A stretch of 64,000 nt of DNA, from positions 44,950,001 through 45,014,000 of the forward strand of contig OZ024744.1 of the NCBI GenBank assembly GCA_964016885.1, read 5' to 3'. Under the pieces are notes generated by a model that saw nothing but the letters and a program-made list of their open reading frames with translations, ran no database searches and was not told where the DNA came from. The position numbers and the translations under genes are program-made. Below, piece by piece: positions 2,863 to 44,833 of the stretch (positions are counted from its first letter, which is position 1; every line of letters starts with the position of its first letter). This DNA is from Eledone cirrhosa (lineage: Eukaryota).

Positions 2863-3257
2863 ATTAATGAAAAAGAACAAGGGAACTATTATGACATTAT
2901 AACAAGTTTATTGCCGACAGCCGTAAATTATAAATTATCTAATTTTTAACCTTCAATCCCTGACTCTTAGGCCCTTTTCAAATTCTCTTAACTCCCCATA
3001 ACCCTTCCCTTTTACAACTCCGACAACTAATATAAAAGAGCCCCCTTAGAATATAGACCCCAAATATACAAGCGGAGCTGGTGATGTATACCACAATTTC
3101 AAACTGCTAATCTTGAGTGAAACGTTGATGTAAATAATGAACTTACAATCACATGTTATATGCCTTGAAAAGTCCCACCATATGGTCGGACGAAACGGCT
3201 GTCGGCAATAGACTTGTTATAATGTCATAATAGTTCCCTTGTTCTCTTTCATTAATA
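2863..3257 (+). mobile_element. Pseudo-LTR fragment with inverted terminal copy and a U3-A8 variant HHR at 3161-3207
   Basis: 2863-2924 is inverted relative to 3195-3257; tgcc-TTGAAAA-gtcc...ggac-GAAA-cggctgT-C-ggca. Confidence 0.7.
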
Positions 3258-3280
3258 TATATATATATATATATATATAT

Positions 3281-4098
3281 GGATAAGAATGAAACGAAAT
3301 TTCATTTCTCACTCTTAGTACGGCTGATACTTAAATGTACGTATGTATGTATACGTACATACATATATGTATACAAACGTACAGTAGTATGTATATATAT
3401 ACATACATGCACACATATATACATGCACGTATGGGTTTAACCAACATTTATTATGATGTTTGGTTTGTTTGTAAACAAACAGCCCGAATGACGCTGTACA
3501 GTGTTCAGGCAAACATCGTCACCCTTTTGTTTAACACTGACACAGGAACGATGTACTAGTTTCAAGCTTATTAGCTATCGTCAGCATCGTATACCTTTCT
3601 GTCAGATAATTGAACGCCTGAAAGTATATACTTTCCTTATGCATATTAACAGCTGAGCAGCCTAATTTGCATATCGAGTGAGTTGGTCGGCCGGGCGCAC
3701 CGAAAACGATAAATGGAAAAGATTGAAACGAAATTTAATTTCTCACTCTTAATACGGCTGATACTTAAATGTAAGTATGTATGTATATGTACATACATAT
3801 ATGTATACAGACGTACACTATTATGTATATATATACATACATGCACACATATATACATGTACGTAGGGGTATACCGAACATTTATTATAATGTTCGCTTT
3901 GTTTGTAAACAAACTGTCCGAATTGCGCTGTACAGTGTTCAAGAAACGATCGTCGCCTTTTTGTTCAACACTGACACAGGAACGATGTACTAGTTTCAAG
4001 CTCATTAGATATCGTCAGTATCATATACCTTTCTGTCAGATGATTCAACGTCTGAAAGTATATACTTTCCTTATGCATATTAACGGCTGAGCAGCCTA
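3281..4098 (-). repeat. Retrozyme-like ~434-bp unit, ~1.9 tandem copies, one HHR per unit (3549-3589, 3983-4023)
   Basis: Direct repeat with period 434; minus strand reads cgatg-CTGACGA-tagctaataagctt-GAAA-ctagt-A-catcg; (TA)n on both sides. Confidence 0.85.
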
Positions 4099-4199
4099 TC
4101 TATCTATATATATATATATATATATATATATATATATATAGAGAGAGAGAGAGAGAGAGAGAGAGAGAGAGAGAGAGAGAGAGAGAGAGAGAGAGATTT

Positions 4200-5980
4200 T
4201 GTATATATGTTGGTTGTAAACCAACACCTCAGTATGCAGATTGGAGCACTCCACGAAGTGCGCAGGTTGGTTTGGTTACTCCGGAGTAATGTAAAATGAA
4301 ATAAAATAAATAAGTCAAATGTTTAAAATTTACCTTCGTTTATTACTGCTATATATATTTCGGTGACAGCCATCTTTGGCTGTGACCTCTTCAGGCAGAC
4401 CGAATTAGTGTGGTATAGACAAGTACATATGTTGTTGAGGTGTATAACCTTGTCAATACTCTGACATGCCCAGTTCCTGGTTGGGTTGTTATTTCACTGA
4501 GGAACTGGAATCATATGAATTCAAACAAACGAATTTCAGTGTCAAAGTCCTCTTCTCCTCACATTGGTCAGTTGTTCGAACATTCCACATTCAAAAGTCT
4601 ATAGAAATTCGTTCTGAGGCAAGCCAATCTGTAGTTGTTGTTATTGTTATTGTTAGGTACATCTGACCTCAATTCTTGTGTTGGTAGTGTTGTTATTGTT
4701 GGAGTTAGCTAAAAAAAATTGATAAAGTGGTAGAAGGATGGTAAAGGAACAAAATAACAAAAAAATGTCAAACTTACCATTGGTCAGTTTTGAGAGCATT
4801 CCTCAGTCCGAAGTCTATAGAAATTATTTCTAGGGTGAGGCTCCCTGTAGTGTTTGTGTTTGCTATTGTTAAGTACATCTGACCTCTACCTTTATTTTGG
4901 TAGTGTTGTTGGTGCTGTGGTCAGCTTATGTCTTGCTGCTGCTGACAATTTAGAAGTATCTGTCTGTCTGTTTTTCATCCCTACCGCCACCATCTCCCGT
5001 GGAGGTGGTGGGGGGGGGGGTTCTTCCATGTATATGAAGAAATATAAGGCAATAAAATGTAGAAAACAAAATAAATAATAAATAGAGAATAAAGAATAAA
5101 TGAAAAATTAATGAAAAAGTAATGAAAATGAATATGGAGAAGTAAAAAATAAAATGAAGATTGAAATAAAGTAAGATAAAGTGTGTGTGTGCTATAACCA
5201 ATCTCAATGTCAGAAATATGTTGGATAGATTGGTTTGAGGAACAAGATGGTAAAAGAATAAAAAAATAAGATAATCAAATAAAATGTGTTTGTGTTATAA
5301 CCAATCTCAACTTAAAAATAAATATAAGGTGATAAAGTGAAGAGAACAGAAAACAAATAACAAATTAATAAAGAGAAATCAAGATTGAAAAATTGAAAAA
5401 TTGAAAAATCAGAAATCAAGTAAAATAAAATGTGTTTGTGTTGGCCAAATTATAATGGCTGTGTCCGAATCAATCTCTAGGCTATCATGGTGTCAGCTCA
5501 TCCTGGGTTGGTCCCTATGGCTTGAGGGAGTTCTCAACCTAGGGTGTTGTTATTGCCCATATAGCTTGAGGGAGGTCTGGCCGAGAGGTGTCTACATCTT
5601 CTGGAGAAGTCCCTATAGCTTGAGGGGAGCTCACATCTTCTTGTGCTGCTACTGTCCATATATCTCTGAGGTGTCTGCATGTCCCGAAGAAGTCGGTTCT
5701 GAGGTTTATAAGGCCGCTTCCACCTCTTAGTATCTCGAGGGTCTCGTTCAGGCATAGTTTGCATATGCAAGATCCCCCTTTATCGGGTGGTACTTTTCTG
5801 ATTATGTACCAGGCCAGAGAGTACGGGGTCCTGTCCAGCTTAAGCTTCCAGATCAGGTCGGAGAGAGCCGTGCTTTTCCTTTTGGCCTCCTTATTGAAGG
5901 AATGGCGATGGTTGTACCAGCGGTCTTTAAAGCTCGTTGATGTGGCTCCTATGTTGAGGTGTTCGGAGTTGGGGGTTTAA
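4200..5980 (-). mobile_element. 5'-truncated PLE: C-terminal GIY-YIG remnant (~5520-5978), long internally duplicated 3' region and pseudo-LTR
   Basis: Minus-strand translation NIGATSTSFKDRWYNHRHSF...STALSDLIWKLK...CKLCLNE...GTCRH; ~215-bp duplication 4565/4780; ccctatagcttgagggag-like motif x3. Confidence 0.8.
4346..4398 (-). ncRNA. Type I hammerhead ribozyme, canonical core
   Basis: ctgc-CTGAAGA-ggtcacagcca/tggctgtcacc-GAAA-tatatat-A-gcag-taataaa on the minus strand. Confidence 0.9.
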
Positions 5981-42320: not shown

Positions 42321-43883
42321 ACATTCATATATATATCGCTAGTTCAGAGCACCAATTCTAATATATATATATACATATATATATACATATATATATATAC
42401 ATATATATATACATATATATATATATATACTTATATATATAAACATATATATATATAACGGCGATGAATTGGTTTTGCGAGGTTTTTGATATAAAATCGT
42501 GTGTCGAAACAAATATTGTTATACGCTAGTAAACTAAGATAGACTACAATAAGCAATACACAGTCACCCAAACACGAACACACATCAAACAAAACACTAT
42601 ACACACACGCAAGCGCATGTGCAGAGAAGACAAAAAATAAACAAATAAATAAATAAGTAAACAGACTAAATAAAGATGGCGTAGGCATTCAATACAACCG
42701 GAGGAAACATAATAGCACCACTGACGATGTTGCAGATGTGCAACGAAATAACTTTGTTAGACTATATATATGTGTTTGTGTCTATATTGTATCTGTATTT
42801 TTTACCGTTGGTCAGTCAATAGCAATATTGAGGAGCGAAAAAATTAAATTAACCGATATAAAAGACACAGAAGCGAAAACCAACGAAACAGTGAGTGGTT
42901 CTCTTATTAATTCTGGAAATATTATTACACAAATATGACCCTCGCCAAGTATAACCATATATATATATACATATATATATATATACATATATATATATAT
43001 ACATATATATATACATATATATATATATATATATATATATATATATATATATATATATATATATATATATATATATATATATATGTATATATATACATAT
43101 ATATACATATATATATATACATATATATATATACATATATATATATATACATATATATATATATATATATAGACATGTATATACATATATATATATATAC
43201 ATATATATATATGTATATATATATACAGATATGTATATACACATATATATATATACACATATATATATATATATATATATATACATATATTTATATATAA
43301 ATACATATGTATATATACATATATATATATATATATATATATATATATATATATATATATATATATATATATATATATATATATATATATATATATATAT
43401 ATATACATATATATATATATATATATATATATATACATATATATATATATATATATATATATATATATATATATATATATATATATATATATATATATAT
43501 ATATACATATATATATATATATATATATATATATGTATATATATAAATTAAATATCACCCAGCAAGAATTGGTTCCCCCTGCATATTAACTCTCTAAAAA
43601 GGGAAATCATATCAAACCACAGTCCACCATTTTCCCCTTCACGGAACCATGGTTCAACTAAGCACTCTTGCGATATTAACACATTTTGAACTGCTTAACT
43701 TCAATGACTGTGCTTGTAAATAACATTATTTTTTCTTCCACATTGACTTTTTAACGTTCCACATTATGCACGTTATTTTTTCCTTTTTCTTTTTTCTTTT
43801 TACTTCTTAGACCTTGTTTCTATATAACATATTCTTTCTACACCTTCTGTTTAACATGTGCAACACCACACTGATACATTTCA

Positions 43884-43925
43884 CTATCATTTGATAATGC
43901 ATATAAATGCTGAAACCGGTAATAG
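43884..43925 (+). ncRNA. Minimal U3-A8 variant HHR
   Basis: TTGATAA(43891-43897)-gcat ataa atgc-GAAA-ACCGGT palindrome-A-atag; stem I is short or bulged. Confidence 0.6.
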
Positions 43926-44391
43926 ACAATAATTAGGTATATAAATAGATAAATAAATGCCATTGTTAAATAATAAATAAATCAACTAAGACCTTAACAC
44001 TTCACACAAAGTAAAACATTTCGTTTTAATCATTTTCTAACCCAGAAAAAAGAGAGAGAGAAACAAAAAAGGGAAAAAAAAAAATTTTTCTTCCACATAA
44101 TCGTCTCTTTCTCCCTGTTTTCATATATATATATATATATATATATATATATATATACACATATATAAAATATATATACATATATACATATATATATATA
44201 TATATATATATATATATATATATATATATATATATATATATATATATATATATATATATATATACATATATAATATATATATACATATATACATATATAT
44301 ATATATATATATATATATATATATATATATATATATATATATATATATATATATATATATATATATATATATATATATATATATATATATG

Positions 44392-44833
44392 TATAGTATA
44401 TTTGGCAATATACTGTATGCCTAATTAAACACATTTTGAAGACCTTGCGCTATTATTTTAATGTAGTGACTATGTCACTTACTTATATTTTCAACAAACA
44501 AAGGGAGATAAGCTGACAGATATGTACACACTATTGGTGATCATCAGAGCTTAGCACTCGCCGATGTTTGTTGAAAATTATAGATGCTGGATTCTTATAG
44601 AATTCCAGTAATAATCAGGAACTGATTATACTGAGCGATTGCCGAGCCACCAAAAGTTGAAAATTAGGATTGGTGCTCTGATGATCAGCAACAGTGTTAA
44701 ACAATCTGTCAGATTATCTCCCTTTGTTTGTTGAAAAAAGAAGTAAGTGACATTTCACTACTTTAAAATAATAGCGCATCGTCTTCAAAATATTTTTAAT
44801 TAAGCATACAGTATATTGCCAAATATACTATAC
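44392..44833. mobile_element. Fold-back element, divergent relative of 41864-42320, with CTGATGA cores and decayed GAAA
   Basis: Shared termini gtatgcYtaattaaa...ttttgaagac; minus arm reads aagct-CTGATGA...tctgT-C-agctt at 44510-44552. Confidence 0.75.

What the first reader, a model, noticed from the sequence alone, without database searches (positions are those of the whole stretch)
3161..44690. Compensated U3-A8 catalytic-core variant recurs in four unrelated families
Seen: TTGAAAA (3165-3171), TTGACAA (39190-39196 minus), TTGATAA (42166-42172 and its mirror arm) and TTGATAA (43891-43897) each replace CTGANGA within an otherwise recognisable HHR fold. The homologous element at 44392-44833 has CTGATGA at the site where 41864-42320 has TTGATAA. 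Established: C3-G8 is a tertiary Watson-Crick pair in the active HHR and U3-A8 is a tolerated natural variant. Inference: the double change indicates selection for catalysis in these tiny elements.
Basis: partly seen in the sequence, partly recalled or inferred. Interest (0 to 1): 0.7.

Follow-up and report, generated by a model that had tools for sequence, protein, structure and literature searches.

The report
Penelope hammerheads; one mismatched-core lineage
These are predicted self-cutting hammerhead RNAs at the ends of common jumping genes, and their swapped core pair (U-A for C-G) is already published; one family also has about 1,470 copies with a mismatched C-A core that would be expected to cut poorly.

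Summary
The four heptamers are at the stated places. Each lies in a type I hammerhead fold at the (TA)n-abutting end of a high-copy repeat. Three belong to Penelope-like elements (two Hydra-type, one Neptune-like); the fourth has no linked ORF. U3-A8 is not a double change in these copies. It is the inherited state of families 1 and 4 (99 of 100 listed copies each) and a single switch in family 3 (one clade, 100/100). U3-A8 in Penelope hammerheads is published (PMC4209133), and this scan noted it before in this genome. Decay does not explain it: a C3-G8 control family gave 98 CG, two single mutants and no UA in 100. Several window copies are damaged, including both arms of the C3-G8 comparator. 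New here: in family 2, 1,474 of 5,720 copies carry an uncompensated C3·A8 core. On a tree of the ORF end they form a grade between an older and a younger U3-A8 lineage. So the pair is favoured across families but was not required for amplification in this one. Cleavage is untested.

The parts
3161..3207 (+). Family 1 type I hammerhead, U3-A8 core 3165-3171, 4-bp stems I and II, self-complementary 8-nt stem III, predicted cut after GUC at 3203; intact
2743..3258 (.). Family 1 pLTR-type end (2922-3258, +, ending at (TA)n) with an inverted truncated copy plus tail (2743-2924, -)
39108..39200 (-). Family 2 hammerhead, U3-A8 core 39196-39190, long stem II, 5-bp stem III; this copy has single changes in stems I, II and III; older U3-A8 lineage
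41864..42320 (.). Family 3A fold-back insertion of a short pLTR-like unit in (TA)n; no linked ORF found
42160..42206 (+). Family 3A hammerhead, U3-A8 core 42166-42172; second pair of stem III broken in this copy
41975..42020 (-). Mirror arm, core 42014-42008; cleavage site and 3' strand of stem I missing (incomplete)
43885..43926 (+). Family 4 hammerhead-like motif, U3-A8 core 43891-43897, palindromic 6-nt stem III, GUA site, weak stem I; end of a Neptune-like PLE
44392..44833 (.). Family 3B fold-back insertion, C3-G8 cores at 44547-44541 (-) and 44678-44684 (+); both arms have lost GAAA
29592..29685 (+). Family 2 hammerhead with mismatched C3·A8 core (29596-29602), rest of the fold present
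26370..26463 (-). Second C3·A8 hammerhead (core 26459-26453), inverted arm of the same insertion
27601..28566 (+). C-terminal (endonuclease) fragment of the family 2 Hydra-type ORF, about 1.1 kb upstream of the C3·A8 hammerhead
41798..41845 (+). Family 2 fragment holding only the 3' half of the hammerhead

Best explanation
The four motifs are type I hammerhead folds in the 3' terminal repeats of Penelope-like retrotransposons or their likely non-autonomous derivatives, predicted to cut the element's RNA, and their U3-A8 core is a family or subfamily trait copied from the source element. The ribozymes likely cut after GUC or GUA, probably as dimers through the palindromic stem III, to process tandem precursor transcripts (inferred from the literature). 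The 3-8 pair switched between C-G and U-A a few times in source lineages, and each switch was then multiplied by retrotransposition. Selection for a pair likely acts on source elements and is soft: one family 2 lineage amplified to about 1,470 copies with an unpaired C3·A8 core before a descendant lineage carried U3-A8 again.
For: Family 1: 639 pattern matches; first 100 listed are 99 U3A8 and 1 U3C8 (N7 fixed as A). Family 4: 981 matches; A8 in 99 of the first 100, U3 in 29 of 30 loci. Family 3: 1,082 matches; first 100 are 55 CG, 37 UA, 3 CA, 0 UG, 5 other (hand count; first 30 confirmed by script); all 28 UA rows form one side of a 100/100 branch among 68 rows with the core masked. Control C3-G8 family: 10,356 matches; first 100 are 98 CG, 1 CA, 1 UG, 0 UA. 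Untargeted clusters: 8 CG, 2 UA, none mismatched, of 10 (Fisher p=0.022; families not independent). ORF links: families 1 and 2 lie downstream of ORFs with RW-R, DKT, CxCX5C, CxxC and CxH motifs, the Hydra features of PMC8557442 section 11. Family 4 lies downstream of RVT_1 (E 9.5e-9) plus GIY-YIG (E 4.6e-5). Family 2: 1,474 of 5,720 are C3·A8; only 73 copies have a non-A at 8, 10 of them C3-G8; C3 is a grade between two U3 groups on three trees; C and T both occur at this position in contigs of public runs.
Against: No cleavage or expression data. Family 4's stem I is weak and it lacks G10.1-C11.1, so it may be a poor or dead ribozyme. The C3·A8 lineage argues against a strict need for the pair. 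Family 3 has no ORF link in the loci I hold, so its PLE origin rests on structure only. The family 2 tree is midpoint-rooted; the protein outgroup tree did not resolve the root. Pfam gave no hit for the Hydra-type ORFs, so that assignment rests on motifs read by eye.
Confidence: 0.8

Rival explanations
1. U3-A8 arose repeatedly as compensated double changes within these genomic copies, each under selection for catalysis.
For: UA exceeds the product of the single frequencies in family 3 (37 against 14.8).
Against: One branch explains all UA rows. Families 1 and 4 are fixed. Several window copies are broken. Non-A8 copies in family 2 are at most about 1.3%, similar to the median end branch of 0.011-0.013 in the terminal region, as neutral decay would give.
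Confidence: 0.03
2. U3-A8 is AT-biased decay of C3-G8, or chance look-alikes.
For: The window is AT-rich and the heptamer is common (72 times); site 4's fold is weak.
Against: The control family shows about 1% single mutants and no doubles in 100; folds are 13 against 0.4 in shuffles; young copies at 97% identity all carry U3-A8.
Confidence: 0.04
3. The hammerheads are dispensable passengers of the elements, or are complemented in trans by a partner RNA, so the core drifts and the excess of paired states reflects selection on the ribozyme only part of the time.
For: The C3·A8 lineage includes ORF-bearing copies and spans about 0.06 substitutions per site of inner branches. PMC8557442 says HHR function in EN+ PLEs is unclear and that Naiads spread without canonical HHRs (passages). 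Stem III loops are palindromic.
Against: 10 of 10 untargeted clusters are paired. C3·A8 copies keep GAAA (36 of 37) and GUC (33 of 37) as well as U3 copies do (62 and 62 of 67). U3 came back, or arose twice, from the C3 grade.
Confidence: 0.2
4. C3·A8 is still active, through an A+·C wobble or a register shift in which C3 pairs with G7 (a core without N7, with one extra base before stem II).
For: 95 of the first 100 C3·A8 copies have G7, whereas U3 copies show all four bases at 7 (29 C, 23 G, 8 U, 7 A of 67). C3 and G7 appear on the same branch.
Against: That is one co-occurrence on a long branch (0.076) at a freely varying site, and G7 persists in the younger U3 lineage. G8A in a C3 background is strongly inactivating by my recall of Ruffner 1990, Przybilski and Hammann 2007 and Nelson and Uhlenbeck 2008; none of these could be read here.
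Confidence: 0.15

Closest known systems
Minimal and short-helix-III type I hammerheads of metazoan Penelope-like elements, including the U3-A8 variant of Schistosoma mansoni Cercyon (Cervera and De la Pena 2014, PMC4209133; parts 1-2 of 4 read)
   Same: Type I topology, location in pLTRs, palindromic helix III, opposite-strand pairs, U3-A8 covariation (about 1,300 hits against about 2,000 there).
   Different: Here one family has an amplified C3·A8 lineage; family 2 has a stable 5-6 bp stem III and a long stem II; several families close stem II with U.U. Supplements of that paper were not read.
Natural U3-A8 hammerheads (Perreault et al. 2011, PMC3088659; passages read)
   Same: C3-G8 covaries to U3-A8 in several natural examples; stated there to be active in vitro.
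   Different: The passages seen do not mention a propagating C3·A8 state.
Hydra clade of C-terminal EN+ PLEs (Craig et al. 2021, PMC8557442; section 11, passages and a supplement search)
   Same: Families 1 and 2: single ORF, C-terminal endonuclease, DKT, CxCX5C, CxxC and CxH motifs, (TA)n insertion, hammerhead present.
   Different: RWR rather than RWK; no sequence comparison with published Hydra families was run.
Animal non-LTR retrozymes (PMC7229834, search listing only; bioRxiv 10.64898/2026.07.22.740005, part 1 of 5 read)
   Same: Short non-coding hammerhead repeats thought to derive from PLE pLTRs; fits family 3 and the control family (about 420-nt tandem spacing).
   Different: Family 3 occurs mostly as inverted or short tandem insertions, not long arrays, in the loci seen.

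Membership tests
Type I hammerhead ribozyme | Core NUGANNA...GAAA...UH with a Watson-Crick 3-8 pair | tested here: met
   Families 1, 3A, 4 and most of family 2
Type I hammerhead ribozyme | Watson-Crick 3-8 pair in the family 2 C3 lineage | tested here: not met
   1,474 copies C3·A8
Type I hammerhead ribozyme | Stems I, II and III around the core (families 1-3) | tested here: met
   Alignments; individual window copies at sites 2 and 3 are damaged
Type I hammerhead ribozyme | Stem I and G10.1-C11.1 in family 4 | tested here: inconclusive
   2 contiguous pairs, a bulge, 2 more pairs; U.U or U-A at 10.1-11.1
Type I hammerhead ribozyme | Site-specific self-cleavage | not testable with these tools
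Penelope-like element, Hydra clade (families 1, 2) | Single ORF with RT and C-terminal EN bearing DKT, CxCX5C, CxxC, CxH; no CCHH | tested here: met
   Read by eye in L303 and L305 ORFs against the description; Pfam gave no hit
Penelope-like element, Hydra clade (families 1, 2) | pLTR, tandem or inverted arrangement, (TA)n targets | tested here: met
Penelope-like element, Hydra clade (families 1, 2) | Phylogenetic placement with reference Hydra RTs | not tested
   No reference sequences were brought in
Penelope-like element, Neptune-like (family 4) | RT plus C-terminal GIY-YIG with a CX2-5CxxC linker | tested here: met
   L307: RVT_1 E 9.5e-9, GIY-YIG E 4.6e-5; linker seen; clade not placed on a tree
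Non-autonomous PLE derivative / retrozyme (family 3) | Identified autonomous partner or head-to-tail arrays | tested here: inconclusive
   Short unit with inverted and tandem copies and a tail, no linked ORF in the loci held

The most novel reading that the evidence does not exclude
A Hydra-type retrotransposon lineage kept transposing through several successive source elements with the unpaired intermediate (C3·A8) of the hammerhead's catalytic base pair, made about 1,470 copies, and then restored the pair: a compensatory path caught in the genome, showing either that the ribozyme's own cleavage is not needed for Penelope-like mobility or that an undescribed C3·A8 or shifted C3-G7 core cuts.
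Probability: 0.55. Interest if true: 0.55.

Novelty: new variant of a known kind. Interest (0 to 1): 0.38.

Why it matters
The finding as given is ordinary: U3-A8 has been in print since 2011, and for Penelope-like elements since 2014. The C3·A8 lineage bears on an open question stated in PMC8557442, whether hammerheads serve or merely ride on EN+ Penelope-like elements. Family 2 offers natural U3-A8, C3·A8 and rare C3-G8 versions of a near-identical ribozyme with a stable stem III, so a simple cleavage assay can separate 'the mismatch is tolerated' from 'cleavage is dispensable or complemented'.

Tried and rejected
Rfam scan: no hammerhead family in the 150 of 263 rows shown; not taken as evidence against, since such minimal folds are poorly modelled. 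MFE folding gave the hammerhead fold only in part and was not used. Pfam and PDB searches of the Hydra-type ORFs gave nothing. The endonuclease protein tree did not root family 2 and did not join families 1 and 2 as sisters, with long branches. Cross-family blastn found only 13-22 nt scraps between families 1-7, so 'unrelated' holds at DNA level although families 1 and 2 share a PLE clade; the number of independent origins of U3-A8 could not be fixed. Sequencing runs: no RNA holder listed. Assembly homopolymer error as the source of C3 was considered and rejected: C3 tracks subfamily-diagnostic flanks and both letters occur in run contigs (these may be the assembly's own sample). Primary kinetic papers and Lunse et al. 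were not held, so rates for G8A are recalled, not read. Literature searches for a C3-A8 lineage showed none in the rows listed; the library lacks most subscription papers and I did not read supplements of PMC4209133 or PMC3088659. The AU test group was named after earlier trees had been seen. Rows dropped: 9 duplicate fetches; the site-2 subfamily was thinned to 8; copies under 65% filled were left out.
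Full report
Setting. The window comes from a 3.0-Gb genome, animal by its transposon content. It is full of (TA)n arrays and fragments of Penelope-like elements (PLEs). I did not determine the organism.

Observation. The four heptamers stand at the stated coordinates. The heptamer itself is common (72 times in the window). The surrounding folds are not: a descriptor with positions 3 and 8 free gives 13 hits against 0.4 in 30 shuffles. All four sites are copies of large repeat families (1,207 to 2,834 first-look candidates). 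Copy quality differs. Site 1 is intact. Site 2 carries single changes in three stems. Site 3 has a broken stem III pair and its mirror arm lacks the cleavage site. The C3-G8 comparator at 44392-44833 has lost GAAA in both arms. Site 4 has a weak stem I in the whole family.

What they are. Families 1 and 2 lie downstream of single ORFs with the motifs that Craig et al. give for the Hydra clade (read by eye, no Pfam hit). Family 4 lies downstream of an RT plus GIY-YIG ORF with a CX2-5CxxC linker, Neptune-like. Family 3 is a short non-coding unit with inverted and tandem copies and no ORF link in the loci held. Inverted 5'-truncated copies, short tails and (TA)n targets are standard PLE architecture (PMC8557442 passages). 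At DNA level the families share nothing beyond scraps.

Family 1: 639 matches; 99 UA, 1 U3C8. Family 4: 981; 99 A8, U3 in 29 of 30. Family 3: 1,082; 55 CG, 37 UA, 3 CA, 0 UG, 5 other. Family 2: 5,720; 76 UA, 24 CA (this anchor misses the five-C subfamily of site 2 itself, which is UA). Control family: 10,356; 98 CG, 1 CA, 1 UG, 0 UA. A script confirmed the hand counts for the first 30 rows of families 2 and 3. Decay therefore gives about 1% single mutants and no doubles. Family 3 exceeds the product of the single frequencies (37 against 14.8), but all 28 UA rows sit on one side of a 100/100 branch with the core masked (68 rows): one switch, then amplification. Across families, a scan of 1.79 Mb of held sequence (not random; enriched for families 1-4) gave 13 clusters of three or more; the 10 not targeted were 8 CG and 2 UA, none mismatched (Fisher p=0.022, families not independent). 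This fits selection on source elements.

The exception. In family 2, 1,474 of 5,720 matches are C3·A8, about 25 times the decay level. Only 73 copies genome-wide have a base other than A at 8: 10 CG, 21 UG, 1 AG, 41 C8 or U8. There is no C3-G8 subfamily. The window holds one such C3·A8 insertion (26459 and 29596). C3·A8 copies keep the rest of the fold (GAAA 36 of 37, GUC 33 of 37) and include ORF-bearing copies. Trees of the terminal region and of 680 columns from the ORF end, about 1 kb from the ribozyme (43 rows), agree. C3 forms a grade between a more diverged U3-A8 group (end branches 0.02-0.13) and a younger one (0.00-0.03), with about 0.06 substitutions per site of inner branches along the grade. 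Holding the C3 rows together is rejected (p-AU 0.0008; group named after earlier trees). Under any root at least one change from C3·A8 to U3-A8 is needed; with the midpoint root the path is U, C, U. U3 copies with C3-type flanks (L190, L194) suggest a point change rather than an end swap, but recombination is not excluded. Both letters occur in contigs of public runs.

Mechanism. Shown: fold, position, inheritance, counts. Inferred from the literature: cutting after GUC or GUA, dimer formation through palindromic stem III, processing of precursor RNA (PMC4209133). Recalled, not read: that G8A in a C3 background strongly lowers cleavage. If so, the C3·A8 lineage moved with a crippled core, was complemented in trans, or uses an unusual geometry. 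That 95 of 100 C3·A8 copies have G7 hints at a shifted C3-G7 pair, but this is a single co-occurrence.

Comparison. U3-A8 is reported in nature by Perreault et al. 2011 (passages) and in PLE hammerheads by Cervera and De la Pena 2014. This scan noted it before in this genome and in another. I found no report of an amplified C3·A8 lineage in the rows listed, nor; unread supplements and papers not held may bear on that.

Verdict. The finding as stated is real but known, and its inference is only partly right. The mismatched lineage is a modest new variant that makes an open question testable. Interest 0.38.

Noticed in passing
window 349(-), 841(+), 6842(+), 38812(+): A further hammerhead family, C3-G8 in 56 of 65 clustered copies; 6842 is a U3·G8 single mutant; 38812 lies about 1 kb after the Hydra-type ORF at 35999-37810.
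   Followed up: partly
window 3584(-), 12497(+), 12926(+), 48365(+): Very abundant C3-G8 family (10,356 pattern matches, about 420-nt tandem spacing), retrozyme-like; used as the decay control.
   Followed up: partly
families 3B, 4, the control family and others: Stem II often closes with U.U instead of G10.1-C11.1 at family level; effect on activity unknown.
   Followed up: no
window 29642-29696; 41798-41845; 41410-41460: The 3' half of the family 2 hammerhead has far higher contig depth than the 5' half, and the window holds 3'-half-only and palindromic end fragments; most insertions seem truncated within the stem II loop.
   Followed up: partly
   Followed up: partly
window 18560-21985 (+): Intact 1,141-aa non-LTR retrotransposon ORF (RVT_1 E 8.6e-23, zf-RVT).
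   Followed up: no
window 4394(-), 40365(+): Two more C3-G8 hammerhead candidates.
   Followed up: no
window 56061-64000: Long low-complexity C/A-rich tandem array with 9-12 nt periodicity.
   Followed up: no
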